Positions 8,091 to 62,776 of a stretch of DNA of 64,000 nucleotides are shown here, in pieces. This DNA comes from Heptranchias perlo (Eukaryota). Position 1 is the stretch's first letter; every line of letters begins with the position of its first letter. Where the stretch lies: assembly GCF_035084215.1 (NCBI RefSeq), contig NC_090340.1, forward strand, positions 14,818,001 to 14,882,000. Direction: 5' to 3'. Position numbers and translations under genes: made by a program. The notes beneath the pieces are model-generated. The model saw nothing but the letters and a program-made list of their open reading frames with translations. It made no database searches and had not been told where the DNA came from.

Positions 8091-11000
8091 ACTTAGAATG
8101 TAAAGCACAGAAACTGGCTATTCGGCTCAACAGGTCCATGCCGGTGTTTATGCTCAACACGAGCTTCCTCCCACACTTCTTCATCTAACTCCATCAATAT
8201 AGCCTTCTATTCCTTTCTCTTTCGTGTGTTTATCCAGCATCCCCTTACATGCATCCATGCTAGTCGCCTCAACAATTCCTTGTGGTGGTGAGTTCCACAT
8301 TCTAACCACTCTCTGGGTAAAGAAATTTCTCCTGAACTTCCTTTGGAGTTTTTAGTGACTATCTTATACTAATGGCCACTAAATCCGAATAGTCCTGCAA
8401 GTGGAAGCATCGTTTTAATGTCTATCATATCAAATCATTTCATAATCTTAAATACATCTATCAGATCAACCCTCAGTCTTCTCTTTTCTAGAGAAAAGAG
8501 CCCTAGCCTGTTCAATCTTTTCTGATAGGTATAACCTCTCAGTTCTGGTATCATCCTAGTAAATCTTTTTTTGCACCTTCTCCAGTCCCTTTATATCCTT
8601 TTTTATAATATGGAGTCCAGAACTATTCACAATCCTCCAAGTGTGGTCTAATCAAGGTACAATACAAGTTTAACATAACTTCCATGCTTTTCAATTCTAT
8701 CCCTCTAGAAGCGAAATCTGGCAGTTTGTTCACTTTTTATGGACTTGATAACTTGCATCGCTACTTTTAGTGATTTGTGTATCTGTACCCCCAGATCCCG
8801 CTGCTCCTGTGCCCCATTTAGATTTATTTTCCAAGGAACATGTGGCCTTCTTATTCTTCCTACTAAAATGTAAAATCTCACACTTACCTATATTGACATT
8901 CATTTGGCAATTACACACCGATTCTGCAAGTTTATTAATATCTTCATGCACTTTGTCACAGTCCTCCTCAATATTAACAATACCCCCCCAATTTGGTGTC
9001 ATGTGCAAATTTTGAAATCCTACTGCCAAGTGTCCAAGTCATTTATCTAAATAATGAACAGTGATCCCAGCACTGATCCTTATGGAGCACCAATTCCCAC
9101 CTTTTGCCAGTCTGAATAAATAACTTTAAACCCGACACTCTGTTTTCTGTTTTGTAGCCAGCTTGCTGTCCATTCGGCTACTTGTCCCTGACTCTACATA
9201 CTCTGAACTTAGTCATCAGTCTACAATGCGGTACCTTATCAAAGGTCTTTTAAAAATCCAAATATATTATATCTACTACATTACCCTGGATAACCCTTTC
9301 TGTTACTTCTGCAAAGAATTCAATAATATCGACTAAGCATGACCTTCCCTTTTGAAATCCGTGCTGACTATTCTTTATTATATTTTCAGTTTTTGGATTT
9401 TTTCTATTACATCTTTGAGTAAGGATTCCATTATCTTTCCTACCACTGACGTTTCGCTAATTGGCCTATAGCTCCCTGGACTTGTTCTATCTCCCTTTTT
9501 AAATATCGGAATCATGTTAGCTCTCCACCAGTCTTCTGGTACTATTCCCTTTTCTAATGATTTTTTATATATATGTAATAGTGCCTCTGCTATCTCTTCC
9601 TTAACTTCGTTTAATATGCACGGATGCATATCCGGGTTTAACCAGGGGATAAACCAAGGTTTAACCTCTCTAAGCTTGATTAGTTTATCAATTATCTCTC
9701 CCTTTCTATCTTAAATGTCTTTACATCTGTTTTGATCTCTTCTTCTAATGTCGTGCCCATCATGCTAGTCTCCCTGGTAAATACTGAGGCAAAGTAATTA
9801 TTTAATATTTGTGCTATTTTGCTGTCAATACGTGAGTGGTCCCATCCTTATCCTGATTTTCTTTCGTTCTTTATGTGTCGGTAGAATACTTTACTGTTTC
9901 TTTTTATGTTCCTTGTTAATTTGATTTCCTAGTTTCTCTTTGCCTTCCGAATTGTTTTTTTAACTTCTTACATAACCTTTTCTTATCCCCTTTTGTCATC
10001 CTCTCCTTTGTTGTCTATGTACTTAGTGTATGCCTTTTCCTTTAGTTTCAATTTTACACTTATTTATTTATTAATCCATGATGTGTCATTATTGGCTAGT
10101 TTTTCTGGCTTTTTAGTTGGATATGTTTCTCCTGGACTCGATTGGTCGGCATTGTTAATGTTTCTCACCGCTGTTCTATATCTTCATTTGTCAGCAAAAT
10201 TTTCGAGTTTATTTTCCCTAGTTCCATTCTCACCCCTTTAAAATTAGCTTTCTTCCAATTCATTACTTTGCTCTTTGCCTTTCATATCTTTATCTTTAAA
10301 CTTATTATGTTGTGATCACTATTACCTAGATGTTCCCTTATGCTTACTTCTCTTATCTGTTCTGGTTCACTTCCCATTATTAGATCCAACAGTGCTTTGT
10401 CTCTTGTTGTAAGAACGGAGTCATGCACATATTGTAAAATCTACATTTCCTGTACCCCTTTACCGACCTCTTCTTGCCAATTTATTTGGAGGTAGTTAAA
10501 ATCTCTCATGATTATTATTCTATGTCACTTACTCATTTCACATATTTGCTTACATGTTTCTTACTCCACCTCCTTTCCACTATTTGGTGGTCTGTAGTAT
10601 ACCCATATTAGCACGATCGATCCCTGCTCATCCTCTATTTCAATCCATATGGATTTTGTTTTTATCCTTCTCTTATTTATGTCCCTTTTCTTTAACTGCC
10701 ATTATGTTACATCTAATCAGTACAGCTACTCCATCCACCTTTGTCTCTTCCCTTTCCTTTCTGATGTTATAACCTGTAATATTTAGTTGCTAGTCCTGTT
10801 CTTTGTGTAACCATGTTTTAGTTATTCTTACTACACCTGGTTCCTCACTATGGATTATTGCCTCCAATTCCCCAGTTTATTTTGGACGCTGTGTACATTG
10901 TTGTATTTTACTTTACTTTTAACAGTCCTTTTATACTTGAGTTTTAGAACTATATTTATTTCTTGACCGTTTGTGTTATCTTTATTCCTTACCCTGGTCT

Positions 11001-11900
11001 GACCTTTACACTCATCTCATGTTTCTTTTATCGTTAGGCTTTCGTTATTGCTGCCAGATCCCTCCCCTCTCCTTGCTAATTTAAAGCCTTAACAACCGCC
11101 CCATTTATCCTTACCACTGGCCCTCTGATCACACTCCAGATCAGCGGTACAGCTCCTTCCTGTCCCACGAGTGGTGCCAGTGCACCATGAAATGGAACTC
11201 CCCTTCCCACACCGCTCTTTCAGCCACACGTTTACCTTTCTGATCTGCCTATCCATATGCCAATTAGTACTTGGCTCAGGTAGCAATCCTGTGATTACTA
11301 CCAAGGACGTCCTGCTTTTTAATTTAGTTCCAAGCTTCTGATATTCTCTTGGCAGGACCTCATCCTTGCTCTTACCATTTCATTGGTGACGACATGGACC
11401 ACGATGACTGATCCTCCCTCTCCCTTTCCAGGCTCCTTCCAGTTGCTTGGAGATGTGCTTTACCTTTGCACCAGTTAGGCAACACACCCTCCTGGACTCT
11501 CGTTCGTGACTGCAGAGCAAGTCATCTTTCCCCCGCTTTATGGACTCCCCTTTGAAATCAACCTTTCTGTTCTGCTCTACCCCCAACCCCCCACAACCCG
11601 CGCCTTCCCCATCTTTTTGGACTGCCTCATGTTCTACAGTGCCATGGTTAGCATTCTGGGCATCCTCCCTGCAGCCTTTATCCTGATCCTCACAGGTATC
11701 ATGTACCTCGTTGGATAGGACTCGTATCTCTGACACCTCCTTCTCTTCCTCTCCTAGGTTCCCTCTGCCCTGCTGACTAACAGTCATACACTCCCCTTCC
11801 TGCACCTACGCTTTCCTCTGAGGTGTGACTAATCTGGAGAAAATTATTTAGATATTCGTCCCCCTCCTCTACGTGTCAGAGTGTGTCTAATTCGCAGTCC
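8090..11900 (-). mobile_element. Near-full-length CR1 LINE, family A (esterase-type ORF1 + EN/RT ORF2), decayed
   Basis: ORF1 RRVCCLTGAKVKHI and VVITGLLP. ORF2 PEDWWRANMIPIFKKG and YRPIS. Confidence 0.9.
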
Positions 11901-12082
11901 ATCCAGAGTTAGGTGTAAAGATTGGAGAAACTTGGGATATTCAGCGTGGGAAAGGGGCCTGAAGGATGATCTTGCAGAGATGTGTAAGATAGTTAAAGAA
12001 TATGAGAACGGTAGATCGGGAAAATTGCTTTAAATTAAATCGCAGAGTTGATCAAAGGGCCACAGGTAAACTTAAGACTGAT

Positions 12083-12690
12083 ATCATAGTATCATAGTAG
12101 ATACAGCACATGTGGAGGCCATTTGGCCCATCGTGCCTGTACGCTGCTCTTTGAAAGAGCTATCCAATTAGTCCTATTTCCCTGCTCTTTACCCATAGCC
12201 CTGAAAATGTTTTCCCTTCAAGTATTTATCCAGTTCCATTTTGGAAGTTACTATTGAATCTGCTTCCACCACCCTTTCAAGTTGTGAATTCCAAATCATT
12301 AAACTCGCTTCATAAAAAAAATGTTTCCTCATGTCGCCTCTGGCTCTTTTGCCGATCACCTTGAACCCGTGTCCTCTGGTTACCCACCCTTCTTCCACTG
12401 AAAACAATTCCTGCTTATTTACTCTGTCAAAACCGTTCATGGTTTTGAACACCTCGATCAAATCTCCCCTTAACCTTCTCTGTTCTTAAGAGAACAACCC
12501 CAGCTTCTCCAGTCCCTCCATATAACTGAAGTCCCTCGTCCCTGGCACTAGTCTAGTAAATCTCTTCTGCATCCTCTCCCAGGCCTTGACATCCTTCCTA
12601 AAGTGTGGTGCCCAGAATTGAACACAGTACTCCAGCTGAGGCATAATCATAGTATCATAGTAGATGTTTTATAGAAGTTTAGCATAACAG
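12083..12690 (-). mobile_element. CR1 3' fragment
   Basis: IEVFKTMNGFDRV..TRGHGFK and a (ctatgata)-type tail. Confidence 0.85.
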
Positions 12691-13448
12691 ATGAGGATAC
12701 CGTGAAAGAAGAGTGTTCAATTCTTGCAATGAACATCCGATAGCGCAGAGGAGATGAAATCTCCTTTAAATCACCAATTTCGTATGCCGTAATGGGGTAA
12801 TGGGGTGCCGTAATGGGGTGAATATCGGGTCTTTCAGGGATGGAAAGGCCTCTCTCGTCCGTAGTTATCTTGTGAACATCTGTTATGAAGAGAGAATCGC
12901 CAGGAACCTATCTTGCATGGTCAAACGCATTGCGAGTGTATCACAGAAACAAGATGTTAATGGGCCTCCAACATATCCTATATTTATAATTCTATGAACG
13001 GAACTTACTCTTTAAGTCATTGCTATCGACAGTTTAGAAGTATAAGACATATGAAAGGTTCACACACTCAAAACAACTTGACACGTATTCCAAAGTATCG
13101 TCAGCTGGTAACATGCATCATTCAAGAAACGTATCATCCCGCAGAAAGTATTAACATGAAGATTCAGCTGCAACCCTCGCCCTCTTCTTTTTACTTATAC
13201 GTTTGTTTGAACTCATATTAAAACTCATCTTATATACAGCATCCAACTGTCAGTTATCTTTGTGTAATCTAATGTTACAGGAAGCGTGTGCAGCGAAATA
13301 CAACGGAATGTTTATGCTAACGAGTGCTCCATGAACCCGTGATCCGTCTGGATTGTGGCTCCATCATCTCGTTCCCTGCGTCCGGACGTTTCCATTTTTC
13401 TTTCCCAGCTGTGTTTGGACATACGTTATTCTTTCCCAAAAGCTAAGG

Positions 13449-13504
13449 CTATGCTTTCGTGGAATTATGAGCAGCAGAAATAGAGATTGTCAACCGTCCT
13501 TTAC
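13449..13504 (-). CDS. Gene A candidate terminal cytoplasmic exon 3 (GKGRLTISISAAHNSTKA*)
   Basis: ttttatttttaattgtcag| acceptor, phase-compatible, followed by non-repeat sequence that could be 3' UTR. Confidence 0.35.
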
Positions 13505-13594
13505 CTGACAATTAAAAATAAAATTCAGAACTGTGTTTTTAAATAATTTAACTACTTTTCATCCACATGCGATGCCCGTCTGTGCATGTCAGCA

Positions 13595-13860
13595 TCACTA
13601 TCATTAGACTCATACGCACACTCACCACCGTACCAATATCATTAAACTCAGAGATACATTCACCACTGCACAAATAACATTAAACTCACAGACACATTCA
13701 CCACAGCATCAATATCATTAGACTCACAGGCACACCACATCACCAATATTATTAGATTCATAGACACTCTCACCAAAGCATCTATTTTATTAGACTCACA
13801 GACACTTATCACTGTATCAAATCATTGGATTAAGAGCCACACTCCCACTGCATCAATAGC
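13595..13860. repeat. Degenerate minisatellite, ~31-32 bp unit, about 8 copies
   Basis: Recurrent cactcaccacagcaccaatatcattagactcacaga-like unit. Confidence 0.8.
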
Positions 13861-14079
13861 AAACTATTATTACATTCGAAGAATGTTCTTCAATTATATC
13901 CTCTCATTGTAATCGACAATAATTATAAAAGTATTCTTACACTAAATCAGTGTTGGACTAAGACAAACTTTCCCCAGTGCTAAATAAATATGCCAACATC
14001 TCAGGATGTCAAAAATAGTAGGATGCAAAACTTATATTTCGGTTCTCACGTTCATTCGTCGGTACTCCATTACTCATGA

Positions 14080-14138
14080 TTATTGTGTATGTGTTATTGT
14101 GTTCTTTATCTTTTTTATATTAAGAGGCAACCGATGAC
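14080..14138 (-). CDS. Gene A candidate terminal cytoplasmic exon 2 (GHRLPLNIKKIKNTITHTQ*)
   Basis: cttatgacttag| acceptor, phase-compatible with the TM exon. Weak pyrimidine tract. Confidence 0.25.
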
Positions 14139-14373
14139 CTAAGTCATAAGCGATATCGCACTGGTGGGTTTGCAATGCGCCCAGTGTGGAGTGACATTGA
14201 AACAAAGATACCGCTCTTAGATATACGAATATCTGAGTGAAACTCCTCAGTCTGCACTCTCTTCAAACCTAATGCCCCATTGCACATTTTCTCACTGAAT
14301 TAAGATACAACTTAAGGAACCCATACACATTAGAAGACGCCAGCTCAGATTGCTAGTCTCTGTTGTGTTATAT

Positions 14374-14615
14374 GGGGGGTAATTTTAACCCCCAAGAACG
14401 GGTTGGGTGTGGGTGGGAAGTTAAAAATAGTTGTTTTTTGGGCCGTGACCGCAAAATTTTCTGACTTTGTATTCCCATTGGGAAGCCTGTAATTGTATGT
14501 GCCCACATTAAACCCGGAAGTGGAGCCTGGTTGCGGTCACGACCCAAAAAATCGACTATTTTCAACACCCAAGCGCCCCCAACCCACCCGTTCTTGGGGG
14601 TTAAAATTACCCACC
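14374..14615. mobile_element. MITE with ~80 bp terminal inverted repeats
   Basis: gggggtaattttaacccccaagaacggg ... cccgttcttgggggttaaaattaccc. Inner arms ttttttgggccgtgaccgcaa / ttgcggtcacgacccaaaaaa are also inverted. Confidence 0.85.
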
Positions 14616-14917
14616 ATGGTCTTAGTTCCAGTCGCAGTTGAAACGCTAAAAGTGGCCTGGGCGTCCACGGAGAGGAAGAGGACAATTAGCATGAATTCCT
14701 GCTTCTGATCATTATCCAGAAGCCGCTGCGGGAAAATTCCAGTCTGATGAGGACGGACTAGGACTGGACCATGAGATGCCCGTCCACACTAATTCTCTGG
14801 ATTCACAGGTGAACGTTGGCCACGTGGGGGGAAAGGTATGGAGGGCTGTGAAGGCTGTGGACATCCCTTGAGAAGGTAACAAAAGAGGAGAACCTCGCAA
14901 AGCCACACTAAAGCAAT

Positions 14918-15060
14918 TCACTCTGATAGGTATGTATAACGGATTAAAGAACAGTTCGAGAAAACTGAACCCGCAGCTTTTACAGATGTTAATGCAATAT
15001 TAACAAAATCACTCGGGAAGTGGCGCCTGCGATAGGAATTCTTCAACCCTACATAGAAAC
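14918..15060 (-). CDS. Gene A candidate terminal cytoplasmic exon 1 (GFYVGLKNSYRRRHFPSD...LIRYTYLSE*)
   Basis: Acceptor cttctgtcttgtctcttcttag|, phase 1 frame open for 47 codons including the stop. The acceptor abuts a SINE end, so it could be fortuitous. Confidence 0.35.
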
Positions 15061-15074
15061 CTAAGAAGAGACAA

Positions 15075-15520
15075 GACAGAAGTTGCATTTGTATAGCACC
15101 TTTTACGACCACAGGACGTTCCAACGAGCTTCACAATCATTGAAGTACCTTTGAAGTGTAGCCATTAAGGTAATGTGGGGTAAAGCAGCAGCAAATTTGT
15201 GCATGGCAAAGTCCCACAAATAGCAATGACCAAATAATCGGTTTTACTTAAGTGGATGGAGGGATAAAAATTGGCCAGGACACCGGGGAAACTCCCCTGC
15301 TCCTCTTCGAAATAGAGTCATGGGATCTTTTATGTCCACCCGAGAGGGCAGACGGGCCTCGGTTTAAGGTCTTGTCAGAAAGTCGGTACCTCTGACAGAG
15401 CAGCACTCACTCAGTGCTGCGCTGAAATATTAGCCTAGATTTGTGCTCAAGTCTCTGGAGTGAGAACTTGAACGCACAACTTTTTGACACAGAACAAGGA
15501 GCTGCCACTGAGCCAAGCAT
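15075..15520 (-). mobile_element. DeuSINE (SacSINE1/AmnSINE1-related), near full length
   Basis: tRNA-like head (tggctcagtgg ... gttcaagt) and central ttaaaccgaggcccgtctgccctctc...aaagatcccatg...ccccggtgtcctggccaa, which I recognise as the Deu domain. Confidence 0.75.
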
Positions 15521-15773
15521 CAAAATTACATCCTATGTTCAGCGTTTACTATTGAATTAACCTGCAACAAACTGAATTAAATATGAAAATTATTGTGTTA
15601 TAGGTATCGGTTTTCCATGTTGTCTGCAATTTGGTACCAAAGCGTTTTAATCAGTAATTTTAAATTACATAAGAAACAGCTGACTAAAGCACATTTCTCA
15701 TCTCCATACCGCCAATCTTATCTGTGAATATGCTTTGAAGGTGATTTCATGAATTAATAAATCATTCTCTTAC

Positions 15774-15887
15774 CTTCAATGGAAGATATTTTTACGTGGT
15801 CCACAATAATAGCCGTCAGTGCAAGAATTACCAAAAAAGCCATGAGAAGCCGAACAATCATGAGGAGCGAGATGCTGAAACCGTGAC
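15774..15887 (-). CDS. Gene A exon 4: transmembrane exon with Arg (GHGFSISLLMIVRLLMAFLVILALTAIIVDHVKISSIE)
   Basis: ccgtag| acceptor and GAAG|gtaaga donor, 114 nt, phase 1-1, in frame with the C1 exon. About 24 hydrophobic residues with a single Arg. Not present in the ORF track. Confidence 0.85.
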
Positions 15888-16700
15888 CTACGGTGTAGGA
15901 TTAGAATCAAGATACAATACTGATATAAGTATTATCGATTGGTTCATACAGAGGAATGGGGTCGCAGCAATCGGCTAAAATCCCGATTCAATTATCCGCA
16001 ATGTGATTATTAAAGTAAGAGCGGCACTGAGTAGTAAAGGAAATCAACGGACGATGTTTTATTGATTATTGTCTGGCGAGGCTAAGAGTTGTTAATAAAA
16101 TGATACATTGAACCGGCTGCACTGTAGCCAGGTTTCGGGCACAGTTTAATGGAGGTTTCTGAGACAGGTCCTAATTGAACACGCAGTGGAGAGGTGTGGG
16201 TTACAAGTTGGACAGAGGGTTAATTTCACAATTTTGCACTAGAAGTAACAGAAAGGGGGATCAGGATCGAAACTGCATTGGGAGAAGCCCGAGATCAGCC
16301 AACTTGACTGCAGCTCCTGGTAACAGTTTTCATGCAGGGAAAGCCAGCAATGGTAAAGAATAAAACAATTTTGACGTGGAAACAAAAAAAGTGAAAAAAT
16401 ATTAATCGAAAGCAGGAGAGGAAATACAATCGGATACAAAAGATTAACTCCTGTTTATATTTTTTATACGGCAAATAGAAGAATTTGAAGACAAATAGCG
16501 TGCAATTGAGAATATTTGTGCGGCGGACGATATAACCCGGGTTCACAACACATCGGGTTCAATTATATTATATATTAAAACGAGAACGTTATGTTTTCGT
16601 TGATAATTCCCATTAACTATCTTCATGATTATAAATAGGAACAAACTCTACCATGTAGCTCATTGCGAATTTGACAGTAGCTAGACTGTTGGCCTCGTAC

Positions 16701-17006
16701 CTGGGTTAGATTTAGTATAGGTGATAACAGCTGGAGTCTCAAGTGAGACATGAGATACCGAGCAGGTATATTTGGCGCCGCTCGAGACAGGCTGCGTCTC
16801 TTCCAAAGTGCTGGAAACTTCATACAGCCCCTCAGTGTTCTGCCGTTTAATGGTGTGTATTCCTGTTGCAGTTTCAACGCCATTTTTATACCAAGTGAGG
16901 GTGAAGTTCTCCGGATAAAACTCAGCCGTTTCACACATAAGAATCAGAGACGCAGATGAATTCCCTTCAGCTGTCATAGAGACAATAATCAGTGGAGTTG
17001 GGGCAG
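16701..17006 (-). CDS. Gene A exon 3: Ig C1-set domain
   Basis: ttctgttccgcag| acceptor and CCAG|gtacga donor, phase 1-1. C1 hallmarks LMCETAEFYPENFTLTWYKN, GLYEVSSTL and YTCSVSHVSL. Confidence 0.93.
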
Positions 17007-17684
17007 CTGCGGAACAGAAAATGAGCAAAATCGAGTTACTGTGCACCATTGGGAGAAATTAAATATGATTCTGATTTACCTTCCGTCCATTTTATTTTAA
17101 CAGCAACATTCCAAAGCACAGCCTCCTGTCGCTTTCATTTTAGGCACATCATCTACACACACCTCATCCATTTCTCTCATCGCCGCCGGCAACTGTTCTA
17201 TTTTACCTGCGCTCTCGAGTCCAAGACATTGAGATATTCAACAGACACGTCGAACGATTGTTAATCAATGTCTGCGTCTCATAACCCAAATAATTAAATA
17301 AATAAATCTTGGGGGTAAGATGCCATACCAAGTCCCTCCATGTTTGGTACTCACAGATAGACAGTGACGATTAAGCTGCACATTGTCGATGATAAAACGA
17401 GGGTATTAGTAGGTATCGGACAGATCTCACAGCCGAGGCATGAAATTGGTGAAAGAAACTATATTCGTTTGAACCTCTGGCGGTTTCAGCAACACAGTTC
17501 CTGTGTATTATTGTATTTATTGGAGATTAGTGAGGTGACAACGTTGTGAATTCCAAGCTCCAGTTTGTTGAGTGAACCCGTTAATCAACAGTTAGTTGCA
17601 CGCTGGCTTTCAAATCCGTGACGCTAACGAATTATATGAGAATAAATTTCGGGAAGAGACAGCGGTGGGGGCAAACAGAGCTTC

Positions 17685-18115
17685 CAATTATATTCTCTGG
17701 AGATTAGAAGAATGAGAGGTGATCTCATTGAAAAATAGAAGATTCTAAGAGGGCTTGATCGGGTAGATGCTGAGAAGATGTTTCCCCTGGCTGGAGAGTC
17801 TAGAACTAGGGGACATAGTCTCAGGTTAAGGGATCGGACATTTAGGACTGAGATGAGGAGGAATTTCTTCACTCAGAGTGTACTGAATATTTGGAATTCT
17901 CTACCCCAGAGAGCTGTGGATGTTCAGTCGTTGAATATATTCAAGGCTGAGATAGATAGATTTTTAGACTCTGAGGGAATCAAGGGATATGGGGATAAGG
18001 CGGGAAAGTGGAGTTGAGGTCGAAGATCATCCATGAACTTATTGAATGGTGGAGCAGGCTCGAGGCACCATATGGCCTACCCTTGCTCCTATTTCGTATG
18101 TTCTTATGTTCCTTT
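17685..18115 (+). mobile_element. CR1 3' fragment in gene A intron 2 (antisense to the gene)
   Basis: RRMRGDLIE and RRNFFTQSVLNIWNSLP, tail tatgttcttatgttc. Confidence 0.88.
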
Positions 18116-18492
18116 GTTCAAACTGGACTAAGCGGCCTGTATATGGTGGTTAAGGCTCATTAATATAAATAATGTTCAGTCAGTTATATGCTTCCAATTT
18201 GTTCCTAACTTCCGCTATCAGACATCTGGTGTATAGATTGTATTTGGAGTTATAGTCTATCTGGTTACTATTGATCATTTTTGCAGCACTCTGCGTATGA
18301 AGGGTTACATTTTATGTCTAATTAGTATTTCTATACAGAGAACACGAACATACAACTTAACTTTCTCGCGAAATGTAATAATATAAAACATTATACTGTC
18401 AAAATTTGTACAATAAAACAATTTTAAAACATCCCCGTTTGTTGCGTTGGATATATTTGCGATAGTCCAGTTCTCCAGTGTTTCACACTCAC

Positions 18493-18813
18493 CATGCACA
18501 ATTAGATGTGATCCGGTTCCATTCCCTCGAACTATACCCTGACGCATCACTGCGCAGTGATAGATTCCAGAATCTTGGAAAGTCGCGCTCAGCAACTGAA
18601 AGAAACCGCTCGCTTTACTTTTCAGACCGAATCGTTTTCTGTCATCGGCACTTGTGCGCAGGTATTCATTCTCGCCCTGTTTCCACCAATGCACTCTTAC
18701 CCAGGAATGGTCTTGAGAGATGGGGAATATGCAGTAGAAGGTGATGTTTCCCCCTCTGGATACAGCCGCTTGTTCGGGCGCTTGAGTCACTCTGAATGAA
18801 GTGTGGTCCACAG
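18493..18813 (-). CDS. Gene A exon 2: germline-joined VJ-type Ig V domain
   Basis: ttctgtag| acceptor and CATG|gtgagt donor, phase 1-1, open frame. Motifs VTQAP, GGNITFYC, VHWWKQ, DSGIYHC and J-like GNGTGSHLIV in one exon. Confidence 0.93.
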
Positions 18814-18982
18814 CTACAGAAAACATAGTCAAGTACGGATTAATTTTATTAGATGGGACATGGAGATGGATGAGAGAAAGAAGAATCGATATAGAGGAAT
18901 TACCGTTCACTAAATTAATATGGAAACTATTTCGGAAGCATTTTATAAATTAAAGTAGCTGCTATATTGAATAAAGAGGTAC

Positions 18983-19037
18983 CTGTGCAAATAATCCACC
19001 GAAGAGTCAGGCAAAGAAATGACAAATTCGTCCACAT
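18983..19037 (-). CDS. Gene A exon 1: signal peptide (MWTNLSFLCLTLRWIICT)
   Basis: ATG at 19037, 55-nt exon ending ACAG|gtacct (phase 1). Hydrophobic leader, identical in size and phase to gene B exon 1. Confidence 0.8.
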
Positions 19038-19270
19038 TCTGAGCAATAGATTAAACAGTAACTGCGAGTTTGCAACTGTTAAGAATGGTTTGCGGTTTGT
19101 TTCCTATGAAATACGTCGCAATGACGTTTGACATCCTGTAACTGCGGCTTTAGAAAATAGGCTTCGTTTGTGAAGTGGGATTTGCTAACTTCTGTACTTC
19201 TTCGACTGCTCGAATCATATCTGTCACAGACAACAAAGAGTAAGAGAAACTATTTGATTTTCAAATGCAG

Positions 19271-20540
19271 AATTTACTAACACTGGCGGAGTCAGTGTTG
19301 TTTCCTGATGATTTAAGATGAAGAAATGGAGGTGCGAGTGCGATATTCCTGGGGTGAATTTCGCAAGACGTTGATGCGTACACTGACCATCCTCTGCCAA
19401 CTACTTTAACGTGACCTAATGGCAAATCCATAAAAAGTGGGTACTAACATCGGTCGTTCATAATCAGCCTTTGAATAATAGGCAGCAATATTTTCTGAGA
19501 AACGTTGGTCAGAAAAGGACTGATTGACAGTTATCTGTGTGTGGACTGTTTACTATAAGTTCACACTTCCGTGCACATCCCAGGTGATATTCGACCGATG
19601 CTGTGCTTTGTAATGTGTTATACCCCGGAAGACTTGACACAAATCCGAACTGAGTAATGTGAAAGCTGAAAGATCAGTAATCACGTGATCGTGTGCCTTG
19701 CCATATGATTGGGCGTGGATGCTGGTGTCGGAAACCGTTCACTGTGACGTACTGAGCTGTTATAACGTCGTTCCATGGGCAGCTGGTTAATGTTGCAAAC
19801 CGTGAGCCTCTTTGTTATCAATTGTTCATCGTTATATTTCTATAACTTTCCGACGTTCAAAAAGCACATATCGTACGATCTCATTATATAGCTGCAGATG
19901 TGTTCTTGAAGTCTAGATATATGTGTAATTTTATTGTCCTGTTATCAGCTCGCGGGTTCTGTCGAGAGCGAATACAATGCATTAATGGTAGCCACGTTAA
20001 AGTAGTGCAAATTGGCTTTATAGTGGTTATGTTACTTAGCTGAACACAAATTGGCCGCCTAACGAGTTGCAAGTAAAACACTCAAGACCGAAGAATGTGT
20101 TAAACAGTGAATGGTAATATTCTTCCCGCTCGAGGTTCTGGTATATTGCAGGCTTTTTCACCTTTTGAAGCATATCCCCTTCAGAGAAGATATAGCGCAG
20201 AATTAAAAAAAACATCTATGCAATTAAAAGTCTCGCATATTGCGCGTGTCCATGAGGACCCCACTTGAACAATGTCGGTAAAACTTCGCAAAAGGCAGCA
20301 CTCCACAAATTAACACGTCATGCTTCTCTGATTGTTTCAGATAACCAAATTCCATTAAGTTTAGCGGATGGATTTCCTCAGATATGGACAGTAGCGAATG
20401 CAACAATAGGAAATATACCCGCCCCCTCACCACAAAACCCAGCAACAACAAAAACAACAATTTGCACATACATTATGCCTCTAACGTGGAAAAAAGACCC
20501 AATTCGGTTCACAGAGCAGTGAGAAAAATAGGAGTTAGAG
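19271..20540 (+). pseudogene. Possible decayed paralogue head-to-head with gene A
   Basis: After the acceptor at 19270 the phase-1 frame reads FK..PGVNFARR*CVH*PSSANYFNVT*WQ..NRQQY, compared with gene B FK..AGTNIAFNCTFPSA..NVNIYWW..SRQRF. A tail-like exon from 20381 contains IHYASNV. Confidence 0.25.
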
Positions 20541-60489: not shown

Positions 60490-60544
60490 ATGTTTATGAG
60501 GGCTCTGCTTCAGAGCATACAGCTCATGGGGATTATTTTCATAG
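60490..60544 (+). CDS. Gene B exon 1: signal peptide (MFMRALLQSIQLMGIIFI)
   Basis: ATG at 60490, 55-nt exon ending ATAG|gtacgt, phase 1, followed by a 91-nt intron to the V exon. Mirrors gene A exon 1. Confidence 0.8.
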
Positions 60545-60635: not shown

Positions 60636-60953
60636 TTGCCGCCGATACTCTGTTTAAAGTGACCCAGGCCCCTGAAAACACCAATTCGATCGCTGGTACA
60701 AACATTGCCTTCAATTGCACATTTCCCAGTGCTCCAGACGATTCAAATGTGAATATATATTGGTGGAAACTTGGCGAAAAGGAATTGATACAACCAGGCT
60801 CAGACAGCAGGCAACGATTTAGTAATGAGAATGGAAGAGCCTCCTTCCATCTCCTGAATGTCAGTGTCCTGGACTCTGGAGCCTATTACTGCTTCGTGAC
60901 ACTTCTGGGGGACAGGGCTGAAAATGGAAGTGGATCAAAGCTTGTCGTCAGTG
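60636..60953 (+). CDS. Gene B exon 2: germline-joined VJ-type Ig V domain
   Basis: ttttgttaacag| acceptor and AGTG|gtaagc donor. Motifs VTQAP, GTNIAFNC, IYWWK, DSGAYYC and ENGSGSKLVV. About 43% identical to gene A V by hand alignment. Confidence 0.93.
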
Positions 60954-62464: not shown

Positions 62465-62776
62465 CTCCCCCAACTCCGCTGAGGATTGTCTCCAAAGCAT
62501 CTGAAAGCAACGTATCTGGTTCTTTCACTCTCGTTTGTGAAATGGCTGCATTTTACCCGGAGGGACTGACTACCACTTGGTATAAAAATGATAGAAGCAT
62601 TGAGATTGGAATACGTACAACTAAACAGCTCACTAGAGCCGGGATGTATGAAGCTTCCAGCTATCTTGAAGAGACACAGCCTGTTCAGGGAGGGACTGTT
62701 TATGTCTGTCTGGTTTCTCACGTGACCCTCCAGATTCCAGCCATGGCGATTTACGTGGTTCCCAATTCTAATTCAG
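62465..62776 (+). CDS. Gene B exon 3: Ig C1-set domain (no TM exon found; likely beyond the window)
   Basis: Long pyrimidine tract + ccag| acceptor and TCAG|gtaaga donor. Motifs LVCEMAAFYPEGLTTTWYKN and YVCLVSHVTL. About 53% identical to gene A C1 by hand alignment. Confidence 0.93.

What the first reader, a model, noticed from the sequence alone, without database searches (positions are those of the whole stretch)
18493..18813. Compact V domain with VNAR-like loss of the C'/C'' (CDR2) region
Seen: the canonical cysteines are only 59 positions apart in gene A (58 in gene B), and the C-strand Trp is 18 residues from the D-strand RF. Known: conventional V domains span roughly 65-75 residues between the cysteines, while shark IgNAR V is short (about 61) because it lacks CDR2. 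Inference: these germline receptors share, by descent or convergence, the truncated single-domain fold of VNAR.
Basis: partly seen in the sequence, partly recalled or inferred. Interest (0 to 1): 0.72.

Follow-up and report, generated by a model that had tools for sequence, protein, structure and literature searches.

The report
Short V domain in shark receptors
This exon encodes an unusually short antibody-like tip domain, predicted to lack the CDR2 loop as shark single-domain antibodies do, in a non-rearranging gene that is likely an "on-switch" immune receptor of a large shark, ray and chimaera family, and the shortening was likely reached independently of those antibodies.

Summary
The numbers are right. 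The cysteines are 59 (gene A) and 58 (gene B) apart, and Trp to RF is 18. The trait is family-wide: 56 of 69 fetched paralogous exons were measurable and span 54-59, against 65-77 for 40 other V-set exons and 61 for this genome's VNARs. AlphaFold (pLDDT 92) shows no C' or C'' strand. Structure cannot separate VNAR from I-set: NCAM Ig1, VNAR and light-chain V tie at Z about 14. The gene is leader-VJ-C1-TM(Arg)-short tail, one of about 100 V-exon matches on one chromosome, many relatives bearing ITIMs. Gene A is a chimera: the ectodomain of an ITIM paralogue (V exon 99% identical) joined to a neighbour's activating TM and tail. In two trees the family is its own clade and VNAR sits with TCR and Ig, so convergence is favoured, but AU tests (p 0.11, 0.21) do not reject shared descent. 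C'' loss is also known in PD-L2. Nine paper searches found no description of the family. This scan noted the family in this genome and the compact V in another genome.

The parts
18983..19037 (-). Gene A leader exon
   Evidence: ATG to GT donor; 94% identical to the leader of RefSeq paralogue P0174
18493..18813 (-). Gene A single VJ exon: compact V domain, Cys-Cys 59, predicted without C'/C'' strands, Asn-Gly-Thr sequon where antibodies have the J-region Phe/Trp
16701..17006 (-). Gene A C1-set exon
   Evidence: Pfam C1-set 52.7 bits; splice sites
15774..15887 (-). Gene A transmembrane exon with an Arg in its N-terminal part (activating type)
   Evidence: 86% identical to the TM exon of the neighbour-type gene at C18:15.4228 Mb; homologous Arg-TM in chimaera protein P0175
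13449..13504 (-). Gene A short cytoplasmic exon with stop codon, no tyrosine motif
   Evidence: predicted from splice sites; homologous exon downstream of the neighbour-type gene
15942..15964 (.). Chimera junction: homology switches from the ITIM-bearing paralogue (leader, V, C1) to the next gene's TM and tail; about 12 kb missing relative to the 15.43 Mb copy
   Evidence: blastn; bridged by a 131-base contig with no difference in 4 of 4 DNA runs of one sample
18389..18850 (.). Likely gene-conversion tract covering the V exon and adjoining intron, shared with the ITIM paralogue
   Evidence: 3 mismatches in 462 bases, none in 141 intronic bases, against 7.6% in other non-coding parts
60496..60544 (+). 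Gene B candidate leader exon (an alternative ATG lies at 60490)
   Evidence: hydrophobic ATG-to-GT scan; not confirmed by transcripts
60636..60953 (+). Gene B compact VJ exon, Cys-Cys 58
   Evidence: 43% identical to gene A V
62465..62776 (+). Gene B C1-set exon; its TM exon lies beyond the window and is frameshifted
   Evidence: Pfam C1-set 44.3 bits; ends read

Best explanation
The exon encodes a germline-joined VJ domain that is 10-15 residues short between the C and E strands and is predicted to lack C' and C'', at the tip of a V-C1-transmembrane protein that is likely an activating member of a large paired-receptor family of cartilaginous fishes, and the shortening likely arose independently of VNAR. 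Shown: exon structure, family-wide shortness, presence in sharks, rays, skate and chimaera, ITIM-tailed and Arg-TM forms, and gene A's mosaic origin. Inferred: the V domain works unpaired, binding through CDR1, CDR3 and the D-E loop or the open GFC face, since the J-region aromatic that packs VH against VL is replaced by an Asn that is probably glycosylated. The TM Arg would recruit an FcR-gamma or CD3-zeta type ITAM adaptor (by analogy with NKp30; recalled). ITIM twins would bind a self cell-surface ligand and recruit SHP phosphatases. Gene A would give the opposite signal on the same ligand or a pathogen mimic of it, with gene conversion keeping the two V domains alike.
For: Length: Trp to E-strand Leu is 28-31 in 30 family rows, 33-34 in 6 VNAR/NAR-TCR rows, 26-32 in 8 I-set rows and 40-48 in 38 other V rows. 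Model pLDDT 92.2 with no strand at residues 45-58. Family size: 102 of 104 V matches lie on contig C18, in two main clusters, fragments included, with a similar set of C1 matches. All 30 hits of a full-length search are chondrichthyan. Trees: family clade 99/99 and 98/91; VNAR plus NAR-TCR 100/99 and 99/98, placed among TCR and Ig V (97/78; 81/75). With the deleted segment left out, the family falls in a 96/93 V/VJ clade that excludes 6 of 7 I-set rows. A VNAR query found 17 matches among 102 candidates, none on C18. The family profile scores VNAR 27-30 bits, below turtle multi-VJ domains (34-50), NCR3-like (36-42) and the I-set rows (31-42, chosen as best scorers). The residue before the GxG is Asn in 35 of 49 parsed exons (55 examined), a sequon in 33, and Phe in 1. 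Paired forms: ITIM tails in P0174, P0008 and ray proteins. Mosaic and conversion. Contigs from runs guessed to be RNA show the V-C1 splice in 4 of 4 runs of one sample, for the 99%-identical ITIM paralogue.
Against: AU tests reject neither family plus VNAR (p 0.106, 0.205) nor family plus I-set (p 0.329); the trees have only 76-103 columns and no SIRP row. The branches that separate the family from VNAR are not starred. The nearest ESM-Atlas cluster is 'putative Antigen receptor (Fragment)', tied at 0.95 with PD-1-type clusters. VNARs are frequent among the top fold matches. The missing C' rests on one predicted model, and the VNAR control model was weak (pLDDT 73.7). Ligand, adaptor and monomer state are untested.
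Confidence: 0.68

Rival explanations
1. Shared descent: the family and VNAR inherited the CDR2-less fold from one ancestral single-domain VJ gene, or the family arose from a germline-joined IgNAR V.
For: Same Trp-to-RF distance of 18 as the genome's VNARs. VNARs tie for best fold match, e.g. 8ht3_A Z 13.8, rmsd 2.1, 98 aligned. Both are found in cartilaginous fishes. A pre-joined IgNAR V exists in this assembly (L168). AU p 0.106 and 0.205. PMC12227049 speculates that the first antigen receptor was a single-domain VJ like IgNAR V (passage).
Against: Only 23% profile identity. VNAR groups with TCR and Ig in both trees. No reciprocal hit. The family C1 is no closer to the C domains on the IgNAR contigs (35.6 bits) than to those I label IgM (37.2). 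The deletion differs: the D-E hairpin is 3-4 residues shorter. Different contigs.
Confidence: 0.1
2. The domain is an I-set domain by origin that never had C'' and gained a J-like G strand, so nothing was lost.
For: NCAM Ig1 heads the fold lists (5aea_A Z 13.9, rmsd 2.2, 95 aligned; 1qz1 Z 14.3). Segment lengths overlap I-set. Gene B scores Pfam I-set 31.9 bits and V-set 30.4. AU p 0.329.
Against: GxG J motif, single phase-1 exon followed by C1, long BC and FG loops. Framework-only tree places it in a 96/93 V/VJ clade. Gene A scores V-set 33.7 against I-set 22.7.
Confidence: 0.1
3. The family is the cartilaginous-fish branch of the SIRP family, and its V domain was shortened further in this lineage. 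This is compatible with convergence on VNAR but makes the genes members of a known family.
For: RefSeq auto-names many members SIRP-like. SIRP-alpha ranks second among PDB matches for a chimaera member (2wng_A, E 1.8e-20, two stretches summed). VJ-C1 layout with ITIM and charged-TM pairs.
Against: For P0174, SIRP-alpha ties with Fab chains, UrIg2 and TAPBPR, and the match starts after the C strand. One C1 rather than two. Names also read tapasin-like, CD276 and light chain. The two SEP-domain genes found (the family of the SIRP neighbour NSFL1C; neighbour recalled) lie on C22 and C3, not C18.
Confidence: 0.25
4. Gene A itself is a silent or dispensable duplication by-product, and the compact fold matters only in its paralogues.
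For: The clusters hold many broken copies (stops; gene B's TM exon has a 13-base deletion). The C1 exon has 8 non-synonymous and 3 synonymous differences from the paralogue.
Against: All five exons are open with canonical splice sites despite about 8% intron divergence from the donors. The V exon seems homogenised with the ITIM twin.
Confidence: 0.25

Closest known systems
IgNAR V domain (VNAR) and NAR-TCR V
   Same: No C''/CDR2, Cys-Cys near 60, Trp-to-RF 18, no J-region aromatic, tied best fold match
   Different: Not rearranging (J in the same exon, no RSS beside it); shorter still (54-59 against 61-63), with a shorter D-E hairpin; one C1 and a TM; separate clade and contig; ITIM and Arg-TM forms
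SIRP family (SIRP-alpha, -beta, -gamma)
   Same: Joined VJ plus C1, clustered paired inhibitory and activating genes, conversion-like homogenisation; source of many RefSeq auto-names
   Different: One C1 in gene A (SIRP has two; recalled); Arg rather than Lys in the TM (recalled); shorter V; about 100 loci; orthology and CD47 binding untested
NKp30 (NCR3)
   Same: Germline VJ with GxG, TM Arg, fold Z 12.9 (6yjp_A)
   Different: The genome's own NCR3-like exons are on C42 with Cys-Cys 69-70 and form a separate clade; NKp30 has no C1 (recalled)
I-set domains (NCAM Ig1) and short V domains such as PD-L2 and CD79b
   Same: ABED / A'GFC layout without C''; NCAM Z 13.9-14.3, CD79b Z 13.3; PD-L2 lacks C'' (PMC12051499 passage)
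   Different: J-type G strand, V-C1 receptor layout, V-type framework in the tree
UrIg and UrIg2 (non-rearranging shark VJ-C1 antibodies)
   Same: Germline-joined VJ followed by C1 in elasmobranchs (PMC12227049)
   Different: UrIg is secreted with three C1 domains and MHC-linked; UrIg2 V is most like VH and has many C domains; here one C1, a membrane anchor and a multigene paired family

Membership tests
IgNAR / VNAR | V domain without C''/CDR2, Cys-Cys about 61 | tested here: met
   Cys-Cys 59, model without C'/C''; prediction only
IgNAR / VNAR | V(D)J rearrangement with RSS after V | tested here: not met
   J is in the same exon and runs to a splice donor; no heptamer match beside the exon. 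The genome's VNAR in L115 has a heptamer-like sequence after V
IgNAR / VNAR | Several heavy-chain C domains after V | tested here: not met
   One C1 exon then a TM exon; no other Ig exon in the window besides gene B
IgNAR / VNAR | V groups with VNAR and NAR-TCR | tested here: inconclusive
   Separate in both best trees; AU p 0.106 and 0.205
I-set domain | A/A' split, D present, very short or no C', no C'' | tested here: met
   definition from PMC8470474 passages
I-set domain | I-set sequence ancestry, no J motif | tested here: inconclusive
   GxG motif present; V/VJ clade 96/93; AU p 0.329; Pfam split between genes A and B
SIRP | Joined VJ followed by C1 | tested here: met
SIRP | Paired ITIM and charged-TM members | tested here: met
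SIRP | V-C1-C1 ectodomain (recalled) | tested here: not met
   Gene A is V-C1; other models read V-C1, V-V-C1 (P0005) or V-C1-V-C1 (P0175)
SIRP | Conserved synteny with the mammalian SIRP cluster | tested here: inconclusive
   SEP-domain genes on C22 and C3; prodynorphin-family search found nothing anywhere
SIRP | Phylogenetic grouping with SIRP V | not tested
   No SIRP sequence was held as a stored protein
SIRP | CD47 binding | not testable with these tools
   needs a binding assay
NKp30 / NCR3 | Single V of about 69-70 Cys spacing without C1 | tested here: not met
NKp30 / NCR3 | TM arginine | tested here: met
UrIg / UrIg2 | VJ plus three or more C1 domains | tested here: not met
   against PMC12227049 text

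The most novel reading that the evidence does not exclude
About a hundred germline VJ-C1 receptor genes preserve the CDR2-less single-domain V from which VNAR descends, so sharks keep a non-rearranging, innate counterpart of IgNAR and a living relative of the gene that RAG split.
Probability: 0.1. Interest if true: 0.88.

Novelty: new variant of a known kind. Interest (0 to 1): 0.5.

Why it matters
If convergent, cartilaginous fishes trimmed CDR2 from a VJ domain twice, once in a rearranging antibody and once in a large innate receptor family. That weakens the use of the VNAR fold as a sign of ancestry and suggests that unpaired V domains tend to lose C''. The family is older than the shark-chimaera split and is labelled only by automatic names in the records I saw. 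It adds a membrane VJ-C1 candidate to the debate on the pre-RAG receptor. It also offers dozens of natural V scaffolds 2-7 residues shorter than VNAR between the cysteines. Gene A shows how an activating partner can be made from an inhibitory gene by one deletion.

Tried and rejected
The profile search of protein representatives and the profile search of PDB sequences were swamped by titin-like multi-domain proteins; only three turtle multi-VJ proteins were useful. A near-length homolog search with the alignment gave 0 of 121 candidates. A short VNAR motif pattern gave one match, the same as its control, and it was not an Ig exon; VNARs were then found beside C exons. No RNA holder was listed on record. 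The contigs from runs guessed to be RNA carry the paralogue's bases and its inhibitory TM exon, and none was laid on gene A's TM exon; this says nothing on whether gene A is silent. A 13502-15098 joint (depth 3, 21 letters on one side, in a repeat) was dismissed. SIRP was not listed among the top 50 rows of the fold searches, which does not exclude it. The viral fold search gave only generic Ig matches. Synteny was not resolved: a flanking exon that I recall as AMFR was not confirmed, and 16 sampled flank stretches were mostly repeats. No complex prediction was run, as no binding partner is claimed. Ohta et al. 2019 (PMC6761025) and a DOI that I recalled for a shark NCR3 paper were not held. 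Rows dropped: 13 of 69 family loci were not parsed; 45 family exons went into the fold alignment; 16 of 88 rows were left out of tree 1 as near-duplicates, and 25 of 88 out of tree 2, including two long branches. Assembly artefact for the chimera was considered and is unlikely, though those runs may be the assembly's own source.

Full report
What is there. The finding's coordinates are one minus-strand exon of a five-exon gene: leader 19037-18983, V 18813-18493, C1 17006-16701, TM 15887-15774 and tail 13504-13449, 283 residues in all, with canonical splice sites. Pfam calls the two domains V-set and C1-set. The V exon includes the G strand with a GxG motif, so V and J are joined in the germline, and no RSS heptamer lies beside it. 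Gene B (V 60636-60953, C1 62465-62776, plus strand) is a 43%-identical paralogue. All named homologues are from cartilaginous fishes: 11 hits and 30, covering sharks, rays, a skate and a chimaera, under automatic names such as SIRP-like, tapasin-related or CD276.

Checking the observation. Cys-Cys is 59 and 58, and Trp to RF is 18. A genome search gave 104 matches among 137 candidates, 102 on contig C18, mainly at 2.7-6.0 and 14.5-15.6 Mb, fragments and broken copies included. Of 69 fetched loci, 56 were parsed: 54 (4), 56 (8), 57 (5), 58 (4), 59 (35) (near-duplicates included). Forty other V-set exons of the genome span 65-77, a set biased to full-length V by its Pfam ranking. The genome's VNARs span 61 and NAR-TCR V 63. 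Using fixed anchors, the whole deficit lies between the C-strand Trp and the E-strand Leu: family 28-31 (30 rows), VNAR and NAR-TCR 33-34 (6), turtle multi-VJ 33-35 (5), one CD28H-type exon 34, I-set 26-32 (8), other V 40-48 (38). Labels such as TCR, IgM or CD8-like are mine, from recalled motifs. Only NCR3-like was checked against PDB; the EIPPP motif of CD28H comes from PMC11599192.

Fold. AlphaFold with 45 family rows gave pLDDT 92.2 and strands A, A', B, C, D, E, F, G, with loop and one helical turn at 45-58. A control on the genome's pre-joined VNAR was weaker (pLDDT 73.7) and showed only two or three strand residues after C. Fold searches tie NCAM Ig1 (Z 13.9-14.3), VNARs (13.5-14.0), antibody V (up to 14.3), PD-1 (13.8) and CD79b (13.3); NKp30 scores 12.9. 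So the loss is supported, but shape cannot tell VNAR-like from I-set-like. Published reviews say the same of VNAR itself (PMC8470474) and list PD-L2 as another V domain without C'' (PMC12051499).

Descent or convergence. In a 72-row tree the family, chimaera included, is a 99/99 clade, and VNAR plus NAR-TCR (100/99) lie among TCR and Ig V (97/78). With the deleted segment removed (63 rows) the picture holds, and the family sits in a 96/93 V/VJ clade apart from 6 of 7 I-set rows. A VNAR query hit no C18 exon, the family profile ranks VNAR below several other domains, and the family C1 shows no preference for C domains on the IgNAR contigs. Against this, AU tests do not reject family plus VNAR (p 0.106, 0.205) or family plus I-set (p 0.329), the separating branches are unstarred, and no SIRP row was included. 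I put convergence at about 0.8, shared descent at 0.1 and I-set origin at 0.1.

How it likely works. The residue that is Phe or Trp in antibody J regions is Asn in 35 of 49 parsed exons, a glycosylation sequon in 33, and Phe in 1. This suggests an unpaired domain (inferred). Relatives carry up to four ITIM-like motifs (P0174), while gene A has a TM Arg and a tail without tyrosines, the pattern of activating receptors that use ITAM adaptors (recalled). Gene A is a mosaic. Window 15964-20300 is about 90% identical to the ITIM gene at 15.434-15.439 Mb, and 11000-15942 is 85-90% identical to the TM and tail of the next gene at 15.418-15.423 Mb; three sister copies all break off at 15964. A contig with no difference bridges the junction in 4 of 4 DNA runs of one sample. 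The V exon differs from its ITIM twin at 3 of 321 bases, inside a 462-base tract that includes 141 identical intron bases, against 7.6% elsewhere; the tract was chosen after the fact, but conversion is likely. Contigs from four runs guessed to be RNA show the V-C1 splice (4 of 4) and the leader-V splice (1 of 4) with the paralogue's bases and its inhibitory TM exon, so the compact domain appears to be expressed in the twin. The most likely mechanism is an on/off pair that reads one ligand; the ligand is unknown.

Comparison and novelty. It works like a SIRP or NKp30-type innate receptor with a VNAR-shaped tip, but it fails membership tests for IgNAR, NCR3 and UrIg; SIRP membership is open. Nine full-text searches and a search of the elephant shark supplement (no SIRP or ITIM hit) found no description of the family. 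The library lacks most subscription journals, two relevant papers were not held, and bioRxiv supplements are closed, so a prior description is not excluded. What I saw of each paper: PMC12227049, outline, part 1 of 8 and passages; PMC10751288, PMC8470474, PMC12051499 and PMC11599192, passages only; PMC3964593, supplement search only. This scan had already noted the family several times in this genome and the same compact V, with the same reading, in another genome. I had stated my reading before seeing them, and they are not independent evidence.

Verdict. A real, family-wide structural variant, probably convergent with VNAR, with precedents for C'' loss. New variant of a known kind; interest 0.5.

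Noticed in passing
L181:2180-2287 (G000:C18, about 14,882,180, just past the window's end): Gene B's TM exon has a 13-base deletion relative to its 15.39 Mb paralogue, giving a frameshift and early stop inside the TM; gene B is probably truncated or dead.
   Followed up: yes
L168:1498-1836 (G000:C572): An IgNAR V already joined to a CDR3 and J in the assembly, either germline-joined or from a rearranged cell.
   Followed up: partly
P0055, P0076, P0100 (turtle proteins): Receptors with 4-6 tandem joined-VJ domains of Cys-Cys 60-63, some ITIM-like, auto-named titin-like, pIgR-like or NCAM2; the best non-chondrichthyan scorers for the family profile. A third group of short VJ domains or a distant relative.
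   Followed up: partly
L070 (G000:C1:27,073,379-27,073,696): A CD28H-type V exon with the EIPPP motif and Cys-Cys 61, whereas a second EIPPP exon (L084) spans 72: another apparently independent shortening.
   Followed up: partly
L043, L044, L045, L057 and L060-L067: Subfamilies with Cys-Cys of only 54 and 56; the L060 group has partly lost the GxG motif.
   Followed up: partly
L204:8911-9384 (G000:C18, about 15.669 Mb): First exon of a gene flanking the cluster that I recall as AMFR; not confirmed. A possible synteny anchor.
   Followed up: partly
L209:5838-6227 and 9215-9727; L210:5810-7756 (G000:C18, about 37.0 Mb): C1-like Ig exons of another gene, and a 649-residue ORF that looks like an NLR-type exon by recall, on the same contig.
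   Followed up: no
L072, L073, L074, L104 (G000:C8): A cluster of single-exon joined-VJ genes with full-length V (Cys-Cys 73) that groups loosely with CD8-like exons.
   Followed up: no
P0014, P0176 versus P0174: RefSeq isoforms of the ITIM paralogue that skip part or all of the V exon; a joint at 17006-18701 in one RNA-guess run fits an internal donor in V.
   Followed up: no
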